From positions 18,063 to 82,062 of the forward strand of contig JAGVWZ010000016.1 in the NCBI GenBank assembly GCA_018304045.1: a stretch of DNA of 64,000 nucleotides. Direction: 5' to 3'. Each line of letters starts with the position of its first letter. Position 1 is the stretch's first letter. The notes below the pieces were generated by a model that searched no databases, had not been told where the DNA came from, and worked only from the letters and a program-made list of their open reading frames with translations. This DNA is from Candidatus Pacearchaeota archaeon (GTDB lineage Archaea > Nanobdellota > Nanobdellia > Pacearchaeales > GW2011-AR1). This document shows positions 2,935 through 61,224 of this stretch, piece by piece. Position numbers and translations under genes: made by a program.

Positions 2935-2995
2935 GGTAGTAATTTAACAGGTTTTAATTCCTGAACATCCTAAAAACAAGTGCCTGTCGCAAACC

Positions 2996-3011
2996 ACACA
3001 CTAAAGTGTGT
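2996..3011. promoter_or_regulatory. NrdR-box-like 16-bp palindrome (acacactaaagtgtgt) in the nrdJ leader
   Basis: ACAC-N8-GTGT palindrome agreeing at most positions with the bacterial NrdR-box consensus acaCwAtATaTwGtgt; second box ~77 bp from the first. Confidence 0.5.
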
Positions 3012-13861: not shown

Positions 13862-13871
13862 CGCCCGCGCC
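13862..13871. repeat. att-like copy of the tRNA-Asp 3' end (cgcccgcgcc)
   Basis: Same core as 12705, 15795 and the tRNA itself; followed by the conserved cassette-end motif caaaaggacttttagtaaat. Confidence 0.6.
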
Positions 13872-13960
13872 GAACAAAAGGACTTTTAGTAAATATTAAT
13901 AAAATTGGAAAGAACTTTTGTGAATAGAACTCTGGATAAAAGTGTCTCAGTTAGAAGAAA

Positions 13961-14209
13961 TTATTGTTCTTTTTTATGATATAAATTTAATATGATTACT
14001 CTTTCCTCATGTTTTATATAGCAATAAGAAAGTCTAAATGGAGATACATATAATTCTCTTGTTCCTCTTCGGTCATACATCATAGGTTTTCCAATTTCAG
14101 GATTATTTTTTATTTTTTCAATTTGTTTGATTACTCTTTCCTTTAAATTATTATCCTTAATTTTTGAAAATGTTTCTCTAAATTTATCATCAAAATTAAC
14201 TCTTGTCAT
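13961..14209 (-). CDS. RelE/ParE-family type II toxin (cassette gene)
   Basis: 82 aa; close paralog of 39767..40015 (shared KIKDNNLKERV...NPEIGKPM...GTRELYVSPFRLSY); RelE-like size and basic character. Confidence 0.6.
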   Translation of the reverse strand: MTRVNFDDKFRETFSKIKDNNLKERVIKQIEKIKNNPEIGKPMMYDRRGTRELYVSPFRLSYCYIKHEERVIILNLYHKKEQ

Positions 14210-14250
14210 TTTAACCTCTTTTTTATTATAATCTGAGAAATAGAATTAAA

Positions 14251-16087: not shown

Positions 16088-16480
16088 TTATCTCTTTCTC
16101 TTTTTCATCCAATTAAGAATAAACATTACACCAATAATAATAGCAGGTAATGCAATTATCATTGACCAACTAAGTGCAATATACCATTGTGGCCACAATC
16201 TTATGGCTGTTGATATAAAATAAAGCACGCCCAATCCAATAAATATAATTCCTCCAACTAGATTATATCTCCATGCAATTAGCAGAACAATTATTAATAA
16301 AAAACTAGGAATCAAATGCATAAATAGCCCTAAGATTGTTCCCCAAAAACCAAGATTCGAATCAAAAATATCCAATGCAAATAAACTAATAAACATTACA
16401 AATAATATGGCTAATATTCTGGGAGTCCAAAACAACCATTTATTGACTTTCTTATTCTTTTTTAAAATTATTTTTTTCAT
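16088..16480 (-). CDS. small integral membrane protein
   Basis: Four hydrophobic segments; no recognisable domain. Confidence 0.4.
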   Translation of the reverse strand: MKKIILKKNKKVNKWLFWTPRILAILFVMFISLFALDIFDSNLGFWGTILGLFMHLIPSFLLIIVLLIAWRYNLVGGIIFIGLGVLYFISTAIRLWPQWYIALSWSMIIALPAIIIGVMFILNWMKKRKR

Positions 16481-16750
16481 ATATAGCTAATGAATTAGAA
16501 GTATTTATATCCTGTTATCAATAATTTATTTCAGCAAGAGGAAAGTATCTCTAACTTCTAAACTAACAAATTCTTAAGAGGCTGAACATGAGAAGACTCA
16601 AACAAATTTTAACATTAATAATAAGACCCAATTAATCAACCTAAGAACTATTTCTTCAATAATATAATAAACCTACTAAGTTTTGCATGACTAATTAATA
16701 TAAACACTACCAATAGAAAAGATTTTGGTTAGACTTATCTTCCAAAATTA

Positions 16751-16890
16751 GGCTCTGTCCGGAATAAATTAATCTAGTCTTATATTGAATAATAAATCTC
16801 TTCATTTTTCTTTCACGCCCTCAATTATTAGGGGCGCGTAAATAAAAATAAGTTTAATTCTAATAAGTATAAAGAACTCCGGACAAAGCC
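16751..16890. mobile_element. MITE-like element, copy 1 (~140 bp, 12-bp perfect TIR GCTCTGTCCGGA, internal hairpin)
   Basis: Terminal inverted repeats ggctctgtccgga ... tccggacaaagcc; flanked by a direct repeat ccaaaatta (possible target-site duplication); second copy at 25043..25192. Confidence 0.55.
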
Positions 16891-16915
16891 CAAAATTAAA
16901 ACCCTAATAAAAACA

Positions 16916-17347
16916 TTATTTCTTCCTATGAGCTTCGCCCTTCTCAACCCTTTTTGTGAATATTAAATAACAAACAGGTAATATTCCAAAAGTGCTTACT
17001 ATTAATAATATCCAAAACCAAAGTTTAGAATTTTTCTTAGAAGCTCTCCACATTGCAAATCCTTTCATAATCATATCAAATATAGTAAGCAACATTATTC
17101 CAAAAATAACAGCTAAGGACTTTATAACTTCCTTTCTAACATCAGGATTAGTTTTTATAGCATTTATAAGAGCTTCCTTAGGATTAGGCGGGCTTATTCC
17201 ATTCTGAAGATAATTCATCTGATTATTTGCTATTTGCTGTTGAATTGAACCCTGCACAGTATTAGCACTAACAAAACTAAAAATATTAATTAAAAATATT
17301 AATCCAAAAATTAAAGCTAATTGTTTTTTCATTTCCTCTTTTTCCAA
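16916..17347 (-). CDS. membrane protein, paralog of 3813..4091 (N-terminal signal or TM, Gln-rich segment, two C-terminal TM helices)
   Basis: Shared KGFA(L/M)W...KKN.K(V/L)WF.ILLIV.T.GIL motif. Confidence 0.45.
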   Translation of the reverse strand: MEKEEMKKQLALIFGLIFLINIFSFVSANTVQGSIQQQIANNQMNYLQNGISPPNPKEALINAIKTNPDVRKEVIKSLAVIFGIMLLTIFDMIMKGFAMWRASKKNSKLWFWILLIVSTFGILPVCYLIFTKRVEKGEAHRKK

Positions 17348-18700: not shown

Positions 18701-18925
18701 ATGTCAGAAATTAAACCACATCTTTTAAGATGTGGATGTTTACTTGTTTTAATTTCTGAGCCATCAAAATATTTTAAATATTTTGTGGCGCCTAAAACTT
18801 CTGAAAGTTTTAGTGCGCATCCTAAAAACAAGTGCCTGTCACAAACCACACATGTCAGAAATCTTTTATGGATTTCTGAGCACTATTGAGAATTAAAAAT
18901 TCTCAAAGCTTTAGTGTGTTAAGTA
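18701..18925. ncRNA. copy B of the nrdJ-leader element family (orphan copy between convergent genes)
   Basis: atgtcagaaattaaaccacatcttttaagatgtgg...gttttaatttctga ... cctaaaaacaagtgcctgtcacaaaccacaca aligns with 2901..3016; outer stem shows compensatory changes (ggaattaaaac/gttttaattcc versus agaaattaaac/gttttaatttct); extra 9-bp perfect hairpin ctaaaacttctgaaagttttag. Confidence 0.4.
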
Positions 18926-24460: not shown

Positions 24461-24961
24461 CTAATGTCGCGCTTCTATTGCTAAGAAGGATTTACACTGA
24501 CTAACCATATCTTCTACTTCTTCAATCAGCTTAATTTGGTATTCATCAATTCTACTTTTAATCACATATCTGTCATAAATACCCCTCATAAACTTCCAAA
24601 AAGGCTGATTTTCCCATCTATCTTCATAATCTTTAAGAAGAACTCCCTTAAATTTGACTTCTAATGAACCAGAATCCATCTTAATTTTTTTATCTTCTTT
24701 TTGAACATCCACTGATTTCATACCAAGTATTTGCCATTCTACTTTTATCTGGAATTTAAAATAATCAGAAACCTCTTTAGCAGCTTCCCAGGTTATTTCA
24801 ATCTGTTTTGAGTCTCCAGAAATTTTTTCAGAATAGGACTTTTCTACTATATCATATCCTTCTTCTTTTAACCAGCTATATAAAAAAGCATAAAGGTCTT
24901 TAAAACTAAAGATTCCAGATTGTTTGACTTTTCCTTGATAAACTTTGTCTTTTTCACTCAT
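24461..24961 (-). CDS. hypothetical protein
   Basis: ORF only. Confidence 0.3.
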   Translation of the reverse strand: MSEKDKVYQGKVKQSGIFSFKDLYAFLYSWLKEEGYDIVEKSYSEKISGDSKQIEITWEAAKEVSDYFKFQIKVEWQILGMKSVDVQKEDKKIKMDSGSLEVKFKGVLLKDYEDRWENQPFWKFMRGIYDRYVIKSRIDEYQIKLIEEVEDMVSQCKSFLAIEARH

Positions 24962-25042
24962 TCTGCTTATAATAAACCTCTTTTACGTAATTCCTAATTA
25001 ATTGTTCTTTAAAAAATCTTCGTTTTTGGAATATTCTAAAAA

Positions 25043-25192
25043 TGCTCTGTCCGGAATTAAATCTCCTAACTTCGAATATTCTAAAAAATCACTTATTTTT
25101 CTTTATCCCCCTCATTAATTAGGGGGGAGTAAATAAAAATAAGACAATAATAGATTAACTTTTATTAAAAATAAAGGACTCCGGACAGAGCA
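25043..25192. mobile_element. MITE-like element, copy 2
   Basis: TIR tgctctgtccgga ... tccggacagagca (perfect 13 bp); internal hairpin tccccctcattaattaggggggag corresponds to cgccctcaattattaggggcg in copy 1 (compensatory G:C to C:G swaps); conserved core ttttctttNNcNccctcaattattaggggNgNgtaaataaaaataag. Confidence 0.55.
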
Positions 25193-25235
25193 TTTAAAAA
25201 GTAAGATTTAAATATGGTTTTCAATTAATTAAACA

Positions 25236-25571
25236 ATGACAAAAGAAGGTGTGAGAATAAAAATATTAAGAAGAGATTTTATTTGGGACAGCGTAAGAAT
25301 AAGTTTTTATTTAATGATTGGATTTTGGATAATATTTACAATGTTAGACACAATGATTTTAAAAAAAAATCCAGGACTTTTAATAATTTTATTATCGTTC
25401 CTATGGGTGATTATAACGATTTTTAATTTTGTAACTTCAATAATTCATCTTACAAAATATAGGCAAAGAACATTTGCCATAGTTTCTCTAGTCTTTTCAT
25501 CAATATTCCTATTATTATTTCTCATAGGAATAGGAATTGGAATAGCTCGTCAGATAATTATCCTAGAATAA
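25236..25571 (+). CDS. small membrane protein
   Basis: Three hydrophobic helices. Confidence 0.35.
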   Translation: MTKEGVRIKILRRDFIWDSVRISFYLMIGFWIIFTMLDTMILKKNPGLLIILLSFLWVIITIFNFVTSIIHLTKYRQRTFAIVSLVFSSIFLLLFLIGIGIGIARQIIILE

Positions 25572-26335: not shown

Positions 26336-27955
26336 ATGTCAGATAAACAACCAATTTATATTATGCCTGAAAATACTGAAAGAACAATTGGCAGAGATGC
26401 CCAAAGAAACAATATTCTAGCTGCAAAACTAGTTGCAGAAGCAATTAAAACAACCCTCGGTCCAAAAGGTATGGATAAAATGCTTGTAGATTCTTTAGGA
26501 GACATTACAGTTACAAATGATGGAGTAACTATTCTAGAAAAAATGGACATAGAACATCCTGCTGCAAAAATGATGGTTGAAATTGCAAAGACTCAAGAAA
26601 GTGAAGTTGGAGATGGAACAACAACTGCTGTAATGTTAGCAGGAAAATTATTAGAAAATGCAGAAAAATTGCTTGATTTGAAAATACATCCAACAGTCAT
26701 AACAAAAGGATATAAATTAGCATCTGAAAAAGCAAAAGAAATCCTGAATAGAGAATCAATAGAAATAACATTGGATAATGAAGAACTTTTAATAAATATT
26801 GTTAAAACCGCAATGACAGGAAAAGGTGCAGAATCTGAAAAAGAAAAATTTTCAAAAATAATTGTTACTGCAATAAGCCAAATTGAAGAAAATAACAATG
26901 TTAATCTAAATAATATAAAAATAATAAAAAATAAATCTTCTGGCATAGAAGATACAGAACTAATAAGAGGAATTATAATTGATAAAGAGAGAGTTTCAAT
27001 AGACATGCCTCAAAAAATTGAAAATGCAAGAATTGCATTGATAAGTGAGCCATTGGAAGTTAAAAATCCCTCTCAAGAAGCAAAAATTTCAATTTCAACA
27101 CCAAGTCAATTGCAGGATTTCATAAACAGAGAAGAGCAAATGTTAAAACAGATTGTTGAAAAAATTAAACTATCAGGAGCAAATGTTATTTTTTGTCAAA
27201 AAGGAATTGATGATATTGTCCAGTATTATCTTGCAAAAGAAAATATCTATGCAACAAGAAGAGTCCCAAAATCAGACATGGAATCACTTTCTTCTGCAAC
27301 AGGTGCAAGAATAATAAGCAATTTAAATGAATTATCTCCATCAGAACTTGGAAGAGCAAAAATTGTAGAAGAAGTAAAACATGGAGATGAAGCAATGACT
27401 TATGTAAGAGGATGTGAAAATCCAAAAACACTAACAATTTTAATCCATGGCGGAAGTGAACATGTTTTAGATGAAATAGAAAGAGCATTTAAAGATGGTT
27501 TAGGGGATGTTGCCACAGTCATTAAAGATAGAACAATAGTTGCAGGTGCAGGAGCAATTGAAATGGAACTTTCAAAACAATTAAAAGAATTTTCTCAAAC
27601 ACTTTCAGGAAGAGAGCAGCTTGCTGTAAATGAATTTGCAAATTCACTGGAATTTATTCCCTCAACACTAGCTGAAAATGCAGGACTTGACCCAATAGAT
27701 GTTTTAACAGAATTAAAACAAAAACATGATGCAGGAGAAAAATATGCAGGAATAAATATTTTCACAAATAAAGTTGAAGATGTAGTTGAAAAAGGAATTC
27801 TAGAGCCTTCAAGAATAAAAAAACAAGCCATATCCTCTGCAACAGAAGTTGCCATAATGATTCTTAGAATAGATGATGTTCTTGCATCAAAAACAAGTCC
27901 AAGATCAAGCCCATCCATGGGCAGAGGAATGCCTGACATGTCAGGCATGGATTAA
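26336..27955 (+). CDS. ths: thermosome subunit (group II chaperonin)
   Basis: [32 protein letters not shown]-terminal GMPDMSGMD tail; preceded by GGGAGA RBS and AT-rich TATA-like tract. Confidence 0.95.
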
Positions 27956-34086: not shown

Positions 34087-34213
34087 AAATCACCTTTAAA
34101 TAGTATTTCATAATGAGAATTAGACTATTTAATTTTAATTATTATATGAGCTGTCAAATTAACGTCAGGTGATTTAAAGCAAAGTTTTTAAATTAGTCAA
34201 AGTTAGATTTAAA

Positions 34214-34687
34214 ATGCTAAAAAAAGGTTTAGGGCTTATAGGTCTTGTAGTTACAATTTTAATATTCTTTAGTGGAGGATTGTTTAGTTTTTACTTTTTT
34301 GATATTAAGACAAGTATTCCATTACTTAATGCACTTATTATAACAATAAAACCGTTTATACTCCCAATTGCTATTTTTTGTGTTATACCTTTAATTGTGT
34401 TTATAATCTGCGTATTGAGAGCAAAACCCAATACTAATATAGATGAGATATTCTTTTGGAAAATATTGAATTTAATTACTCATCTTATATTATTAATTTT
34501 AATATTATTTATTATTGGTTGGTTTTGGGCATTGATGATGATAGGATTAATGATAATTTCAAATAATATTAATATTTCATTAATAATCCCCTGCATCATA
34601 GTAATTGTTTCTATATTTGTAATAGATGCATTAGTACAAAAACATTTTAAGATTAGATATTATAATATACTTCATTGGCTTAAATAG
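34214..34687 (+). CDS. integral membrane protein
   Basis: Four to five TM helices. Confidence 0.35.
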   Translation: MLKKGLGLIGLVVTILIFFSGGLFSFYFFDIKTSIPLLNALIITIKPFILPIAIFCVIPLIVFIICVLRAKPNTNIDEIFFWKILNLITHLILLILILFIIGWFWALMMIGLMIISNNINISLIIPCIIVIVSIFVIDALVQKHFKIRYYNILHWLK

Positions 34688-35549
34688 AAGCCATTTTAAT
34701 TAATCCCAACCATCTATTTTCTCCTAAATCTAAATCTTGACCTGCAAGAGAACAAGGAACTTGTTTAGTTGTGGTATGTTCTTCTATAAAATTATGTTGT
34801 ATGGTTAGACCTGCCATGATTATTGGAGCAGACCAAAGGGCTTTCAATCCTCTAAAATCATCAACTCTATCTTTAATCTTCATAAAAACAGTTTCTATTT
34901 TATAATTATGAATATGAGTTTTATGATAATTTTGTATTTTATGCTCTACTTCATAACCACCACCAAAACCTAATTTATTATTGTAAAACATTTTTTTAAA
35001 TGCCTTAGGATAGAAAACTCCTGCATCTGTTTGAATAAACTTGGGTTTTCCTTTGCTTATTGCTTTCTCTAAGAATATTTTTGCTTGATTAGGATTTGTA
35101 GCTGTGCTATAATGTATTCCAGTAATCATTCTAGTATTCCAGTCAACACAACACCAATATTTATCTAAATGCCCACTTCTATTGATTACTGTTTCATCAG
35201 CATAAAATGAATTACCTAGATTATAACCTAATTTTTCAACAAAGTTATAAACCTTTAGAGCATACTTGTAAACCCAGTTTAAAATAGTTTGATGGCTTAC
35301 TTTAAAATTGAAATGTCTTTTTAATTGGTTTCTCATTTTTCTGCTTGAAAGGTTTGATAAGTACATATCAATGGACATAGCAATAGTTCTATTATCAGTT
35401 CTCATCCTATAAAAGCCATTGTCAGCAGTAAAGTATTTCTTACAATCAGAACAATAGTATTTCTGAATCTTACCTCTATTTTCAGTTTTTCTGTATCCTT
35501 GCTTTGAAAAGTTGATACTTCCACAATGCTTACATTTTATTTCTTGTTT
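34680..35549 (-). CDS. IS6-like DDE transposase with N-terminal zinc finger
   Basis: N-terminal CKHCGS...CSDCKKYF zinc finger; DDE candidates ADETVIN / IQTDAGVFYPKAFK / NFIEEHTTTK resemble the IS6/IS26 DETY...TDKAPAY...IEQ spacing; probable start at MKQEIKCKHCG. Confidence 0.5.
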   Translation of the reverse strand, partial: KQEIKCKHCGSINFSKQGYRKTENRGKIQKYYCSDCKKYFTADNGFYRMRTDNRTIAMSIDMYLSNLSSRKMRNQLKRHFNFKVSHQTILNWVYKYALKVYNFVEKLGYNLGNSFYADETVINRSGHLDKYWCCVDWNTRMITGIHYSTATNPNQAKIFLEKAISKGKPKFIQTDAGVFYPKAFKKMFYNNKLGFGGGYEVEHKIQNYHKTHIHNYKIETVFMKIKDRVDDFRGLKALWSAPIIMAGLTIQHNFIEEHTTTKQVPCSLAGQDLDLGENRWLGLIKMASI

Positions 35550-35680
35550 CATAATATATTCATGTACCTGAACTATATAAATGTTTCGGTACATGAAAAA
35601 GATATTTAAATACAAAAAAGCTTATAAACTGATAAAAAGAAGAGAAGAAAAGGTAATTGTGATATAACCAAGATTTAAAA

Positions 35681-35944
35681 ATGACTTTTAATAATAACAC
35701 TATGGATGAAAATTTATCTCATGATTTAGAAAGATTTCAAGAAGATATTTTATATTTTGAAAATAAAAAAGAGGAATTAAGAGCAGAATTCTTAAATAAA
35801 TTTGTTGCAATAAAAAATAAGAGGATTATAGATTCTGGTAACTCCATAGAAGAGCTAAGGAACCGATTAGAAAACAATAATCAAGACCCTGCAAGAATAA
35901 TAATAGAATTTGTACCAGAAGAAGAAACTATAATGATTTTATAA
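35681..35944 (+). CDS. hypothetical coiled-coil protein
   Basis: ORF only; adjacent to the aspartic protease gene with a 1-bp gap. Confidence 0.3.
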   Translation: MTFNNNTMDENLSHDLERFQEDILYFENKKEELRAEFLNKFVAIKNKRIIDSGNSIEELRNRLENNNQDPARIIIEFVPEEETIMIL

Positions 35945-36382
35945 ATGACAAAAATTCCTTTGTTTATGGGTAAGAGTCTTGGTTTTGATAGATATATGGT
36001 TTCAATGTCTGTTAAATATTGTAATTTACCCTGTTTTTTTACTAAAGCTATTGTGGATACTGGATGCCCTTATACAATTATAAGCGAGAGTACATTAAAA
36101 AAGACAAGGATACCTTATAATGATAAACCATTTAAATGCCAAGTTCAATTAGGAAATATTCCTTTAGAATTAAAAGAACTAGGTATTTGTGAACTTCAAT
36201 TTAGAGATGAAAATGGGAATATTATAAAATTTAAACAAGAAATTTATGTTGGAATTCCTATAATGAAGGGGTATCTCGCCCAAGAACTTCCAAGTTTTAT
36301 CGGGAAAGATTTAATGGATACAAATTTTATATCGGTAATAAATAAAAAAGATGGTTCTAGTCATTTATATTTAGATGATTAA
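35945..36382 (+). CDS. retropepsin-like (clan AA) aspartic peptidase
   Basis: Active-site motif AIVDTGCPYTIIS (D-T-G) in a ~145-aa protein, as in archaeal AF_0612-type aspartic proteases. Confidence 0.5.
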   Translation: MTKIPLFMGKSLGFDRYMVSMSVKYCNLPCFFTKAIVDTGCPYTIISESTLKKTRIPYNDKPFKCQVQLGNIPLELKELGICELQFRDENGNIIKFKQEIYVGIPIMKGYLAQELPSFIGKDLMDTNFISVINKKDGSSHLYLDD

Positions 36383-36599
36383 ATTAATAATTTATTCTTT
36401 TTCAATTAAAATTTTTCCATCATTCAATGATGCTTTAAGTTCTTTTCCTAATAACTTAGATTCTTTTACGACATCCTTAGGTAAAATTAAAATATATCTA
36501 TTATAAGTAACATCACCTATTTTCTTGTCTAATACTTCACGAATTTTCATAGAATAAACAGGTACATGAAGTATTTAAAACTTTAGGTACATGAAAGAA

Positions 36600-37394
36600 T
36601 TATTTTAATATCTCTTTTAAATCAAGATTAATAGATTCAAAATATTTAACTGGGCTATTTTTTTTCAAATTCTTTGTTGTTTTACCTTCTTTAAATAAAT
36701 CAATAAAATTTGATAAACCTTTTTTATATTTTTCTTTTATTTTAGGAAGAAGTTTTTCCTTAGCCTGATTTAAACAATTCTTGCTACAAAAATTTCTAGT
36801 TATTTTATTCTCTTTAAAATTAATGAATCTATTGTTATGTTCTTTTCCACAAACAATACAAATATCTTTCTCATCAGTTATTCTTTGTCTAAAAGAATAA
36901 CCATATTTATTAATATAACAATCCGCGCATTTAGATGAACAAAAGTCAGCCATATTACTAAACCCTGCATTTGAATGAATTATAAAGCCATCATGTCCTT
37001 TTCCGCACACTATACATTTATACCTAAACTTCATCCCAAATAATCTTTTAAAAAAAAGTTTTGGTTTATGAAACCAAATCCTACCTTGTATAATTTCTCC
37101 TTTTTCAGTATTAGGTTTATTCGGTTTAGAAATAAGTTTTTCTTCTTTAGGTTTAACAACAAAACATTTAATTTTTTGTTTTTCCATTTGCGGCTTAATT
37201 TCTGAAAGATATTCTTGTAATCCTTTAATTTTACTATAATCCGTTTCATCAGTCTTCATTCTTAAAAATAAAGTTCTTTCTATTTTATTATTAATCGTCT
37301 GATTTCCAAATCCTTCTATTTCAAAATAAGCATTTGGAGAGGGTTCGGTAATATTTATTACTTTGTCATGAGTCTTTCTATTTTCCTTTTTCAT
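36600..37394 (-). CDS. protein with two TRASH/zinc-ribbon-like metal-binding modules
   Basis: CIVCGKGHDGFIIH...FCSSKCADCY and CIVCGKEHNNRF...FCSKNC (Cx2C-x19-22-Cx3C TRASH spacing). Confidence 0.45.
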   Translation of the reverse strand: MKKENRKTHDKVINITEPSPNAYFEIEGFGNQTINNKIERTLFLRMKTDETDYSKIKGLQEYLSEIKPQMEKQKIKCFVVKPKEEKLISKPNKPNTEKGEIIQGRIWFHKPKLFFKRLFGMKFRYKCIVCGKGHDGFIIHSNAGFSNMADFCSSKCADCYINKYGYSFRQRITDEKDICIVCGKEHNNRFINFKENKITRNFCSKNCLNQAKEKLLPKIKEKYKKGLSNFIDLFKEGKTTKNLKKNSPVKYFESINLDLKEILK

Positions 37395-37499
37395 TTAATT
37401 ATAACGATTTTACAACTTATAAATATTGCTTTCTTAGAAATGGGAAATTAATAACTGACGTTTACTTTACAACTCATTATTATAGCAAATAACAAAAAT

Positions 37500-38882: not shown

Positions 38883-39007
38883 TTCATATTTGCAAGGCAA
38901 ATATGTCATCCGGGATGTCGTAAAGAATTCAAACAGTGATAAGGTCTGATTCCGAGCAAAAGGACTTTTAGTAAATTTGATAGAATAAGAAAGCACTTTT
39001 GCGAGTA

Positions 39008-39018
39008 GGGTGGCACAT
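39008..39018. repeat. att-like copy of the tRNA-Gly 3' end (gggtggcacat)
   Basis: tRNA ends cgggtggcgca; the copy is preceded by the conserved cassette-end motif. Confidence 0.55.
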
Positions 39019-39081
39019 TTTATTATTTTCTAGTAGTAACAAAATAGGAAGATTTAAAAATGTTAAAGAATAGTTAATTTT

Positions 39082-39578: not shown

Positions 39579-39773
39579 ATGGAAACACAAACAATAGACA
39601 ATTTGTCAAAAGAAGTAATGCTGTTAAAAAAAGAATTTGCTAAAATGAAAGAATTCATGGAAGAAGATCTTGAATTTGCAAAAAGAACAGAAGAAGCATG
39701 GCAGGAAATTGATGAAGGAAAATGCACTTGTATAAATTCTGAAGACTTTTTAAAAGAAATTAAAAAATGGTAG
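39579..39773 (+). CDS. antitoxin (C-terminally similar to 14251..14520)
   Basis: EEDLEFAKRTEEAWQE...FLKEIKKW versus EEDLEFARRTEEAYKR...FIEEMKKW; immediately precedes and overlaps the toxin gene. Confidence 0.5.
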   Translation: METQTIDNLSKEVMLLKKEFAKMKEFMEEDLEFAKRTEEAWQEIDEGKCTCINSEDFLKEIKKW

Positions 39774-40015
39774 AAATAATCTATGCAGATAGATTCAAAA
39801 GAACATTATCAAAAATTAAGGATAATAATCTTAAAGAGAGGGTAGCAAAACAAATTGCAAAGATTATTGAAAATCCTGAAATAGGCAAACCAATGAGTTA
39901 TAATAGAAAAGGGACAAGAGAACTTTATGTTTCACCATTTAGGCTATCTTATGCTTTTATCTCACATCAAAATACAATTTATTTTTTAGATTTGTATCAT
40001 AAGGATGAACAATAA
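39767..40015 (+). CDS. RelE/ParE-family toxin, paralog of 13961..14209
   Basis: ~70% identical to the tRNA-Asp-array toxin. Confidence 0.6.
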   Translation: MVEIIYADRFKRTLSKIKDNNLKERVAKQIAKIIENPEIGKPMSYNRKGTRELYVSPFRLSYAFISHQNTIYFLDLYHKDEQ

Positions 40016-42188: not shown

Positions 42189-42304
42189 ACTAAATTCCTT
42201 ATAGTAAAACAATAAAATTTTGTGCAAACTGAACTTTTTTCTTGTTTACGAGCAAAAGGACTTTTAGCAAATTCGATGAAATAAGAAAGCACTTTTGCGA
42301 GTAG

Positions 42305-42315
42305 GGTGGCGCATG
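42305..42315. repeat. att-like copy of the tRNA-Gly 3' end (gggtggcgcat)
   Basis: Preceded by the conserved cassette-end motif (42253..42304). Confidence 0.55.
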
Positions 42316-42364
42316 TTTTACTGAACATTATATAGTCCTTAAACTAAAATGTGGTAGCCGAGAA

Positions 42365-57423: not shown

Positions 57424-57549
57424 TTTTATAGTAAATCTTAAACTGGTTATTATTTATTAATTTCTATTATTAACTATTCAGTTTAACACTAAAAACCTTT
57501 AAAAGGCATAGGTTTATTATTATTTTAAGATTAATTAATAATCTTAAAT

Positions 57550-57620
57550 GGGCTATTAGGCTAGTGGCAAACCGATTCCTTTACACGGAATATTCACCAG
57601 TTCGATTCTGGTATGGCCCA
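57550..57620 (+). tRNA. tRNA-Val (anticodon TAC)
   Basis: Acceptor GGGCTAT/ATGGCCC (one G:U); anticodon stem ATTCC/GGAAT with loop TTTACAC; T-arm ACCAG-TTCGATT-CTGGT; discriminator A; D-stem imperfect. Confidence 0.6.
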
Positions 57621-58075
57621 TATAAATAAAATGAAGACCTCCATAAAAATACTTTTAATTGTAGTATATTTAATTGGTTTTACATTGTTATTACCTTTCT
57701 TTTTTAGTATGCTTGACAAACTTCCTGATTCTTATGCTTTGGGAGTTATCGCTGTCTTGATTATTGTTTTTATGTATTGTTTTATTCCATATAAAATCTG
57801 GAAGTTGAAAAAATGAGTTCATCAGTTTTATACACTAGAGGAATACCAATATTGATTGGGGTTATAATATCTTTTATACTCTATCTACTCTCACAATGGC
57901 TTTTGAACAGAAAAAAATGAGATTGTTTACACAAAAAATTCACTAGTTTGATTTTGACATAATTTCACATGTTTTTTTATAGATTTTTTGTTTTAGAAAA
58001 GTTTATAAGTTTACAATATGGAAAAATATATAGGGGTGAGAAGCACCTCAGGAGCTTATTCTGAGAAGATTTAAG

Positions 58076-61097: not shown

Positions 61098-61170
61098 ATA
61101 ATATACAAATAGATTCTAAACATTATTACTAAAAAAGGAACAAAAAGGTTCATATTGGTGTAAACGAGGT

Positions 61171-61224
61171 GGTTTGCCACTAGCCTAATCGCCCATTAGA
61201 TTATTATTCATAATCTTAAAATAA
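61171..61224 (-). pseudogene. inverted partial copy of tRNA-Val (promoter + positions 1-26, then divergent anticodon stem with the same TTTACAC loop)
   Basis: Reverse complement reads tattttaagattatgaataataatctaat-GGGCGATTAGGCTAGTGGCAAACC-ACCTCGTTTACACC, versus ttattttaagattaattaataatcttaaat-GGGCTATTAGGCTAGTGGCAAACC-GATTCCTTTACACGGAAT at 57521..57590. Confidence 0.45.

What the first reader, a model, noticed from the sequence alone, without database searches (positions are those of the whole stretch)
16751..16890. MITE-like element with perfect 12-bp TIRs, two copies, internal hairpin with compensatory changes
Copies at 16751..16890 and 25043..25192 share the terminal inverted repeat GCTCTGTCCGGA and a conserved core (ttttcttt..ccctcaattattagggg..gtaaataaaaataag). 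The internal stem differs by paired swaps (cgccc/gggcg versus ccccc/ggggg). Copy 1 is flanked by a 9-bp direct repeat ccaaaatta, which looks like a target-site duplication. Non-autonomous transposon derivatives are known in some archaea, but this family appears uncharacterised. The covariation hints at a structured RNA or a transposase-binding hairpin.
Basis: seen in the sequence. Interest (0 to 1): 0.55.

Follow-up and report, generated by a model that had tools for sequence, protein, structure and literature searches.

The report
Archaeal MITE of an IS5-type transposon
The two 140-150 bp repeats are real miniature transposons (MITEs) in a tiny groundwater archaeon, and I found the roughly 1 kb IS5-type insertion sequence whose ends they copy, so this is an ordinary though previously unnamed mobile-element family.

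Summary
Copy 1's right repeat has one mismatch. The target duplication is 8 bp, not 9.

The elements are MITEs. Each is 1 variable base plus GCTCTGTCCGGA at both ends, non-coding and intergenic. The same termini bound 100-306 bp elements in at least 9 Pacearchaeota, Woesearchaeota and Nanoarchaeota genomes. Interiors are unrelated between most genomes and near-identical within a genome.

- 26 of 39 non-redundant elements have an 8-bp direct repeat with at most 1 mismatch, against 0 of 37 controls.
- Syntenic loci in two relatives lack copy 2.
- A metagenome scan found ten 979-1003 bp elements with the same termini and 8-bp duplications. Each has one roughly 300-aa DDE_Tnp_1 transposase. Its best family match is IS5, and its nearest annotated relatives are haloarchaeal IS5 elements that also start GGCTCTGT.

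The internal hairpin keeps pairing through base changes. It occurs in only one subfamily and is absent from the insertion-sequence ends, so it is not needed for transposition. No Rfam family matches.

My first guess, an IS6-family partner, was wrong. The IS6-like transposase in the window belongs to a separate 3.3 kb cargo transposon.

Verdict: a new member of a known kind, of modest interest.

The parts
16743..16750 (.). Left target-site duplication of copy 1 (caaaatta)
   Evidence: Read directly. It is identical to 16891-16898. The 8-bp register is the same as in 21 perfect cases across the family.
16751..16890 (.). MITE copy 1, 140 bp. The left end is IRR-like (GGAAT) and the right end is IRL-like (GGAGTT).
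   Evidence: It is intergenic: 25 bp separate it from the stop codon of the ORF at 16916-17347 (-), and it lies 270 bp upstream of the start of the ORF at 16088-16480 (-). All 8 places shown (of 23 contigs read) that encode the identical neighbouring protein carry it.
16751..16763 (+). Left terminal inverted repeat of copy 1 (G + GCTCTGTCCGGA)
   Evidence: 0 mismatches.
16878..16890 (-). Right terminal inverted repeat of copy 1 (G + GCTTTGTCCGGA, one mismatch)
   Evidence: 1 mismatch.
16804..16852 (.). Conserved core of copy 1: T-rich arm, stem CGCCC (16816-16820) / GGGCG (16832-16836), A-rich arm
   Evidence: (D7).
16891..16898 (.). Right target-site duplication of copy 1 (caaaatta)
25035..25042 (.). 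Left target-site duplication of copy 2 (tctaaaaa)
   Evidence: One mismatch to the right copy.
25043..25192 (.). MITE copy 2, 150 bp, with perfect 13-bp terminal repeats (T + GCTCTGTCCGGA ... A)
   Evidence: It lies between divergent genes, 81 bp from the start codon at 24961 (-) and 43 bp from the start codon at 25236 (+). It is absent from the syntenic intergenic region of relatives L279, L280 and L281.
25095..25143 (.). Conserved core of copy 2: T-rich arm, C-run 25107-25111 / G-run 25122-25127, A-rich arm
   Evidence: (D7).
25193..25200 (.). Right target-site duplication of copy 2 (tttaaaaa)

Best explanation
The two repeats are non-autonomous transposons (MITEs) of an unnamed IS5-family insertion sequence that circulates in DPANN archaea (Pacearchaeota, Woesearchaeota, Nanoarchaeota). 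Each MITE consists of the insertion sequence's 13-17 bp termini around a non-coding interior of about 110-125 bp.

**Inferred mechanism.** The roughly 300-aa DDE transposase is encoded by a full-length copy of about 1 kb elsewhere in the genome or population. It binds the two terminal repeats of the MITE in trans and cleaves at the tips. It then inserts the element into a target cut with an 8-bp stagger, and repair produces the 8-bp direct repeat.

**Shown here.** The structure, the target duplications, the empty sites, the multi-genome distribution, and the existence and family of the autonomous partner.

**Inferred, not shown.**
- That this transposase is the one acting on these two copies.
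- Whether transposition is conservative or replicative.
- That a full-length copy is or was present in this particular genome.

The two window copies are old: 72% identical to each other, and present on every identical-protein contig shown. The internal GC hairpin flanked by T-runs and A-runs is a feature of one MITE subfamily and is not needed for mobility.
For: 1. **Same termini in many genomes.** Short elements with these ends occur in 21 loci of 9 GTDB genomes. Interiors are unrelated between most genomes and near-identical within one. Eight copies in both orientations lie in the complete Woesearchaeota chromosome OZ242164.1.
2. **Target duplications.** Of 39 non-redundant elements, 21 have a perfect 8-bp direct repeat and 5 have one mismatch. 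None of 37 control pairs shifted 10 nt outward has 1 mismatch or fewer.
3. **Empty sites.** The syntenic intergenic region (thermosome, CBS, 112 aa | 166 aa, 464 aa) in relatives with 76-79% identical flanking protein lacks the element. The alignment gap sits at the MITE.
4. **Autonomous partner.** Ten low-GC metagenome contigs carry 979-1003 bp elements with N+GCTCTGTCCGGA at both ends. Three have perfect 8-bp duplications (L164, L232, L255). Each has one ORF of about 300 aa.
5. **Transposase family.**
   - The ORF matches Pfam DDE_Tnp_1 above its cut-off (E 3e-10).
   - Its best NCBIfam match is an IS5 family model (114 bits).
   - R-x3-E-x6-K is present in all ten ORFs.
6. **Annotated relatives.** All but one of the relatives listed from the plasmid collection are haloarchaeal 'IS5 family transposase' genes (ISHvo2, ISHla2, ISHma13, ISH28, ISH19), at 24-34% identity. 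All 7 inspected carry GGCTCTGTTGAAA (one mismatch in L289) about 45-90 nt upstream of the gene. That is the same 8-nt tip.
7. **Matching end asymmetry.** The MITE ends are GGAGTT on one side and GGAAT on the other, like IRL GGAGTTT and IRR GGA(A/T)(A/T)G of the insertion sequence.
8. **Repeat-like assembly behaviour.** Contigs often break inside the MITE. Most transposase contigs are 1-2 kb.
Against: - No full-length copy lies in the 64 kb window, and I could not search the rest of this genome.
- Homology between MITEs and the insertion sequence stops after 14-26 terminal nt, so these MITEs are not simple internal deletions of the copies I found.
- The NCBIfam IS5 score is below the curated equivalog cut-off (114 against 140 bits).
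- Thirteen of 39 elements show no clean duplication. This is expected for old copies or copies that have recombined, but it is not explained case by case.
- No experiment shows mobility.
Confidence: 0.9

Rival explanations
1. It is a MITE mobilised by the IS6/IS1-like transposase encoded in the same window (34680-35552, minus strand).
For: - That transposase matches Pfam DDE_Tnp_IS240 and the NCBIfam IS6 model.
- Its transposon also makes 8-bp duplications and has a tip of the form xGxxCTGT.
- IS6-family ends are described as GG...cTGTt with 8-bp repeats (PMC7986276).
Against: - Its own 22-25 bp terminal repeats are TGAGCTGTAAAGTTAACGTCAG. They differ from the MITE ends at positions 3-4 and everywhere after position 8.
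- Twelve loci around homologues carry no MITE terminus.
- A different insertion sequence has termini identical to the MITE.
Confidence: 0.04
2. It is a structured non-coding RNA gene family. The long terminal stem and the internal hairpin are RNA helices kept by selection.
For: - Fold z-scores run from -5.4 to -8.0.
- The central stem changes while staying complementary in four sequence types: CGCCC/GGGCG, CCCCCC/GGGGGG, TCTCCC/GGGAGA and TTCCCCCC/GGGGGGAA.
Against: - The elements have 8-bp target duplications and empty sites.
- Copies lie in both orientations, and interiors are unrelated between most genomes behind identical tips.
- The same tips bound a transposase gene.
- Both strands fold equally well, as any palindrome does.
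- No Rfam match comes near a gathering score.
- Only four distinct sequences are available, so the covariation is weak. Palindromes can also keep complementarity without selection on RNA, for example through template switching; that is an inference.
Confidence: 0.03
3. It is a MITE that the host has additionally co-opted. The hairpin-core subfamily would act as a bidirectional transcription stop or insulator between closely packed genes.
For: - Runs of 5 or more T precede the hairpin on both strands: cattttt on +, cttattttt on -.
- From general knowledge, archaeal RNA polymerase terminates at oligo-T.
- Copy 1 starts 25 bp after a stop codon, and copy 2 lies between divergent genes.
- Both copies are present on every identical-protein contig shown.
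Against: - There are no transcript data.
- T-runs are common in a genome with 28% GC.
- Relatives do without the element at the same site.
- Intergenic location is what survives selection for any MITE.
Confidence: 0.12
4. The similarity is a chance repeat or an ordinary duplicated intergenic segment with no mobility.
For: There are only two copies in the window, and they are only 72% identical overall.
Against: Everything argues against it.
Confidence: 0.01

Closest known systems
Haloarchaeal IS5-family insertion sequences (ISHvo2, ISHla2, ISHma13, ISH28, ISH19 as named in RefSeq annotation)
   Same: - Both have a DDE_Tnp_1 transposase of about 270-310 aa.
- These are the best annotated relatives of the partner transposase, at 24-34% identity over about 80% of its length.
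- The end upstream of the gene starts GGCTCTGT in 6 of the 7 inspected, and GGCTTTGT in the seventh.
- They are single-ORF elements of about 1 kb.
   Different: - After position 8 the repeat is TTGAAATCC in haloarchaea and CCGGAGTTT or CCGGAAAGG here.
- The hosts are high-GC Halobacteria, against 28-35% GC DPANN archaea for most copies here.
- I did not establish the right ends or duplications of the haloarchaeal copies.
- I did not compare with ISH1 itself or with ISfinder.
Archaeal MITEs assigned to an insertion-sequence class by homologous termini (for example the MITEHsal series and ISH2 of Halobacterium salinarum; PMC7002104)
   Same: - Both are short non-coding elements with terminal repeats homologous to those of a transposase-encoding element.
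- Both are flanked by target duplications, are mobilised in trans, and are polymorphic between strains.
   Different: - The insertion-sequence lineage and the host phylum differ.
- Here the interiors are unrelated to the partner beyond 14-26 nt.
- The same 13-nt tip is shared across order-level lineages.
MITE census of prokaryotic genomes (PMC11602168), which reports a Woesearchaeota genome among the archaea with the highest MITE density (105 per Mb)
   Same: It shows that MITEs are already known to be abundant in DPANN genomes.
   Different: It is a bulk catalogue. I could not check whether this family is in it, because no supplementary files are held. Going by the passages returned, no partner insertion sequence is assigned there.
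REP/REPIN elements with single-copy RAYT transposases
   Same: I considered this model while the IS6-like transposase looked single-copy and free of terminal repeats.
   Different: I rejected it. That transposase has its own terminal repeats and duplications. The MITE's partner is an ordinary insertion sequence that breaks assemblies.

Membership tests
MITE (prokaryotic miniature inverted-repeat transposable element) | Short, with no coding capacity | tested here: met
   The copies are 140 and 150 bp, and no ORF of 50 aa or more overlaps either. Family members range from 100 to 306 bp.
MITE (prokaryotic miniature inverted-repeat transposable element) | Terminal inverted repeats | tested here: met
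   The terminal repeats are 13 bp, perfect in copy 2 and with one mismatch in copy 1.
MITE (prokaryotic miniature inverted-repeat transposable element) | Target-site duplication of fixed length | tested here: met
   The duplication is 8 bp. Twenty-six of 39 elements have 1 mismatch or fewer, against 0 of 37 shifted controls. Two elements have 9 bp (L003, L016).
MITE (prokaryotic miniature inverted-repeat transposable element) | Dispersed multiple copies, in both orientations | tested here: met
   There are 2 copies in the window, 8 in OZ242164.1 and 4 in the H43-bin046_1 genome.
MITE (prokaryotic miniature inverted-repeat transposable element) | Termini homologous to those of an autonomous element that encodes a transposase | tested here: met
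   Ten elements of 979-1003 bp have identical 13-nt tips and a DDE_Tnp_1 ORF.
MITE (prokaryotic miniature inverted-repeat transposable element) | Presence/absence polymorphism at orthologous sites | tested here: met
   Copy 2 is absent from the syntenic site in L279, L280 and L281. The flanks have diverged too far to define the junction to the base.
MITE (prokaryotic miniature inverted-repeat transposable element) | Mobilisation in trans by the partner transposase | not testable with these tools
   This needs a transposition or binding assay.
IS5 family (for the partner element) | DDE transposase of the IS4/IS5 type (Pfam DDE_Tnp_1) | tested here: met
   PF01609 scores 40.5 and 42 bits against a cut-off of 23.
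IS5 family (for the partner element) | NCBIfam IS5 equivalog score at or above the curated cut-off | tested here: not met
   NF033579 is the best hit at 114.3 bits, but its cut-off is 140. The next families (IS982, IS4) score 36 bits or less. It is therefore a divergent relative, not an equivalog of the curated set.
IS5 family (for the partner element) | C-terminal R-x3-E-x6-K signature around the catalytic E. The motif definition is from my own knowledge of IS4/IS5 transposases. | tested here: met
   It is present in all ten ORFs, for example MRSINETVNSVLKR.
IS5 family, ISH1 subgroup | About 0.9-1.15 kb, 8-bp direct repeats, ends '-GC'. These subgroup criteria are recalled from the ISfinder family table and I could not verify them in the library. 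| tested here: inconclusive
   The length (979-1003 bp), the 8-bp repeats and the N-GC tips fit. I could not compare the transposase with ISH1 or query ISfinder.
IS6 family (considered as source of the MITE) | Ends GG..cTGTt..caaa, 8-bp repeats, and a cognate IS6 transposase with the same ends (PMC7986276) | tested here: not met
   The 8-bp repeats and CTGT at positions 5-8 fit. There is no 'caaa', and the IS6-like transposon in the window has different terminal repeats. The element with identical ends encodes an IS5-type enzyme that shows no similarity to IS26 or to the window's IS6-like protein.
Any Rfam RNA family | Score at or above the gathering threshold | tested here: not met
   The only hits at the gathering threshold in the window are three tRNAs. 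The best permissive hits over the two copies score 27.7 and 23.9 bits against gathering scores of 100 and 60.

The most novel reading that the evidence does not exclude
The 13-nt tip is invariant across order-level DPANN lineages. Full-length copies are only 67-86% identical to each other. MITE interiors are unrelated to the insertion sequence and span 31-56% GC, and in the two high-GC cases I attributed this to a higher-GC host. Together this could mean one insertion-sequence lineage spreads horizontally among these episymbiotic archaea. It would then repeatedly create new MITEs from host DNA rather than by internal deletion. At least one such lineage, the hairpin-core subfamily seen here, may be retained by the host as a bidirectional transcription stop.
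Probability: 0.2. Interest if true: 0.45.

Novelty: new member of a known kind. Interest (0 to 1): 0.3.

Why it matters
DPANN archaea have very small genomes, and their mobile elements are poorly catalogued. This result has three practical uses.

- **Annotation.** It gives a concrete insertion-sequence/MITE pair: the termini, the duplication length, the transposase family, and about 900 homologue clusters that are currently unnamed or labelled 'hypothetical protein'. This can be used to annotate these genomes.
- **Assembly.** It explains recurrent contig breaks in their assemblies.
- **Strain tracking.** Insertion polymorphisms can be used to follow strains.

It does not change how MITEs are understood.

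Tried and rejected
1. **IS6-family partner.** I guessed this from the 8-bp duplication and the GG..CTGT tip. A phmmer search with an IS26 sequence that I recalled from memory picked up the window ORF at 34683-35621. Pfam and NCBIfam called it IS6/IS1-like. It is not the partner, because its terminal repeats differ.
2. **A domesticated, repeat-less, single-copy transposase driving the MITEs (REPIN/RAYT-like).** This was suggested by about 735 homologue clusters (the 120 listed are 66-93% identical), mostly on single contigs and without MITE termini nearby. I rejected it once the 22-bp terminal repeats and 8-bp duplications of a 3.2-4.3 kb cargo transposon were found.
3. **Viral-contig scan with a 14-mer of the terminus.** It gave 109 hits, all single, and none of those with a second near-match is low-GC (0.39-0.68 GC). 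None encodes a related transposase, so these are chance matches.
4. **Empty sites among contigs that encode identical flanking proteins.** Every one shown carries the MITE or breaks inside it.
5. **Linking the insertion sequence to this genome.** Contigs with an identical transposase come from the same sample series as the window organism (ERZ272547xx, ERZ4903137), but they share no flank with the window.
6. **Literature.**
   - The terminus sequence appears in no relevant paper.
   - The ISfinder subgroup table and Filee et al. 2007 are not held.
   - The MITE census has no supplements held.
7. **Calls that returned only an error.** These were (pattern syntax, too few specified bases, paper not held, wrong frame).

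Full report
**Observation.** The two copies are at 16751-16890 and 25043-25192. The 12-mer GCTCTGTCCGGA occurs four times in the window as two inverted pairs. Three occurrences are exact and one has a single mismatch, the right end of copy 1. With up to 2 mismatches allowed, 0.61 matches are expected, and 1 of 100 shuffles reached 4. The shared core is 86% identical (D7). Both copies lie in intergenic DNA and no ORF of 50 aa or more overlaps them. Both strands fold far better than shuffles, which any element with terminal repeats and a palindromic core will do.

**Host.** The window has 26-34% GC. It encodes a thermosome at 26336-27955. The protein next to copy 2 is identical to a protein of a Candidatus Pacearchaeota MAG (P0241). 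The host is therefore a DPANN archaeon.

**Distribution.**
- I scanned one genome per GTDB species for the two termini 100-130 nt apart. This returned 21 loci from 9 MAGs labelled Pacearchaeota, Woesearchaeota, Nanoarchaeota or 'archaeon'.
- The 12 terminal bases are the same everywhere. Interiors are unrelated between most genomes and near-identical within a genome.
- One closed Woesearchaeota chromosome holds 8 copies in both orientations.
- GC of the elements runs from 0.31 to 0.56.

**Boundaries and target duplication.** Lining up the flanks shows that each element carries one extra, variable base outside the 12-mer at each end. It is followed by an 8-bp direct repeat.
- Over 39 non-redundant elements, 21 have a perfect 8-bp repeat and 5 have one mismatch.
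- None of the 37 control pairs (flanks shifted 10 nt outward) has 1 mismatch or fewer.
- In the window, copy 1 has caaaatta / caaaatta and copy 2 has tctaaaaa / tttaaaaa.

**Empty sites.** Contigs that encode proteins identical to the window's flanking genes all carry the MITEs, and many contigs break inside copy 2. Relatives whose 166-aa flanking protein is 76-79% identical keep the local gene order: thermosome, CBS protein (in L280/L281), small membrane protein, then the 166-aa and roughly 460-aa genes. They have a 117-166 bp spacer with no terminus. In the alignment, the conserved flanks bracket a gap where the window has the 150-bp element.

**The partner.**
- My first idea was IS6, because of the 8-bp repeats and the GG..CTGT tip (PMC7986276). 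An IS6/IS1-like transposase is indeed encoded at 34680-35552.
- Its many homologues looked single-copy and had no MITE termini nearby. For a while this suggested a domesticated enzyme.
- Comparing contexts showed instead that the gene sits in a 3.2-4.3 kb transposon with its own 22-25 bp terminal repeats (TGAGCTGTAAAGTTAACGTCAG), perfect 8-bp duplications and variable cargo. That element is separate from the MITE.
- I then scanned the metagenome collection for one MITE end extended to 16 nt (GCTCTGTCCGGAGTTT).
- Ten low-GC contigs have two termini 979-1003 bp apart. Three of these have perfect 8-bp duplications.
- Each holds one ORF of about 300 aa. It matches Pfam DDE_Tnp_1 above its cut-off. 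Its best NCBIfam model is an IS5 family equivalog, at 114 bits against a cut-off of 140.
- All ten ORFs keep R-x3-E-x6-K.
- The ORF shows no similarity to IS26 or to the window's IS6-like protein.

**Relation between the insertion sequence and the MITEs.** The end upstream of the transposase gene reads N-GCTCTGTCCGGAGTTT. The other end reads N-GCTCTGTCCGGA(A/T)(A/T)G. Most MITEs, including both window copies, have one GGAGTT end and one GGAAT end. Beyond 14-26 terminal nt there is no similarity. Full-length copies are 67-86% identical to each other, so several insertion-sequence 'species' share the same tip.

**Relatives.**
- The transposase has 903 homologue clusters at E of 1e-5 or better. 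Most sit on 1-2 kb contigs, and none has a source name beyond 'hypothetical protein'.
- In the annotated plasmid collection, all but one of the matches listed are haloarchaeal 'IS5 family transposase' genes at 24-34% identity. They include ISHvo2, ISHla2, ISHma13, ISH28 and ISH19.
- All seven I inspected have GGCTCTGTTGAAA (GGCTTTGT in one) about 45-90 nt upstream of the gene. That is the same first eight bases as the DPANN element.
- By my recollection of the ISfinder table, about 1 kb, 8-bp repeats and '-GC' ends describe the ISH1 subgroup of IS5. I could not verify that or compare with ISH1.

**The hairpin.**
- The T-run / GC stem / A-run core is shared by the two window copies, the copies of one Hainich groundwater Nanoarchaeota MAG, and one metagenome contig.
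- The stems are CGCCC/GGGCG, CCCCCC/GGGGGG, TCTCCC/GGGAGA and TTCCCCCC/GGGGGGAA.
- Pairing is thus kept through base changes, but only four distinct sequences are available.
- Other subfamilies and the insertion-sequence ends lack this hairpin, so it is not part of the transposition machinery.
- No Rfam family matches.
- A host role, for example a stop signal at the T-runs present on both strands, is possible but untested.

**Mechanism and verdict.** The best explanation is trans-mobilisation of these non-coding elements by the IS5-type DDE transposase of the roughly 1 kb partner, with insertion into an 8-bp staggered cut. The structure, the duplications, the empty sites and the partner are shown. 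The enzyme-substrate link and the presence of a full-length copy in this genome are inferred.

MITEs are already known to be dense in some DPANN genomes (PMC11602168). Archaeal MITEs are routinely assigned to insertion-sequence classes by their termini (PMC7002104). This is therefore a new member of a known kind.

Noticed in passing
window 34147-37476 (duplications at 34139-34146 and 37477-37484): This is a 3.3 kb transposon with 22-bp terminal repeats (TGAGCTGTCAAATTAACGTCAG / TGAGTTGTAAAGTAAACGTCAG) and a perfect 8-bp duplication, TTATTATA.

It carries an IS6/IS1-like transposase with an N-terminal zinc finger (34680-35552, minus strand). It also carries four cargo genes: a membrane protein, a DUF5678 protein, an aspartyl-protease-like protein and a Zn-ribbon protein.

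Homologous 3.2-4.3 kb units elsewhere (L022, L024, L026, L028) have the same repeats and perfect 8-bp duplications but different cargo, including methyltransferase plus restriction enzyme pairs and a Fic protein. The IS6-family review read lists no member longer than about 1.8 kb, so cargo elements of this size may deserve their own look.
   Followed up: partly
window 35547-35612 and 36545-36610; also L022 about 2970-3005: Copies of TTCATGTACC, inverted in the window and direct in L022, bracket a TATA-like box just upstream of the IS6-like transposase gene. They also lie upstream of the Zn-ribbon cargo gene at 36600-37394. They look like an operator for a regulator carried by the transposon (D4).
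   Followed up: no
window 38947-39021, 42243-42317, partial copy at 13870-13894: An intergenic repeat of 66-75 nt is 89% identical between the two long copies (CGAGCAAAAGGACTTTTAGYAAAT...GCACTTTTGCGAGTAGGGTGGC). Both long copies lie upstream of genes on the + strand: one with no Pfam match and one with a Schlafen AlbA_2 domain. It is not an IS200/IS605 end, because no TnpA or TnpB is adjacent (D1/D5).
   Followed up: partly
window 57547-57586 and 61158-61197: The first 40 nt of tRNA-Val (57549-57621, +) recur 3.5 kb away on the opposite strand at 88% identity. This may be the scar or boundary of an integrated element. Two large ORFs (575 and 435 aa) lie between the copies (I5).
   Followed up: no
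window 2966-3000 and 18818-18852: A 35-nt repeat, CATCCTAAAAACAAGTGCCTGTC(G/A)CAAACCACACA, is 97% identical between the two sites, and the flanks are unrelated. Its nature is unknown (D15).
   Followed up: partly
window 13961-14225 and 39751-40015: These are 265-nt inverted paralogous segments, 71% complementary. Both encode ParE-like toxins, so the window holds two copies of a toxin-antitoxin module (I1).
   Followed up: partly
L149 660-945 (JGI 3300009285 contig with the gene next to copy 2): Here the same MITE copy has a changed outer end (AAAGGACTCC-TCTGTCCGGAGTCC), and different genes lie beyond it. This is either a rearrangement at the MITE terminus or an assembly chimera at the palindrome.
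   Followed up: no
L029 and L031 against L028 (left junction of the cargo transposon): Contigs that carry the identical transposase and cargo share the right flank but have three different left flanks and slightly different left repeats. This suggests recombination between transposon copies, or strain-level rearrangement.
   Followed up: no
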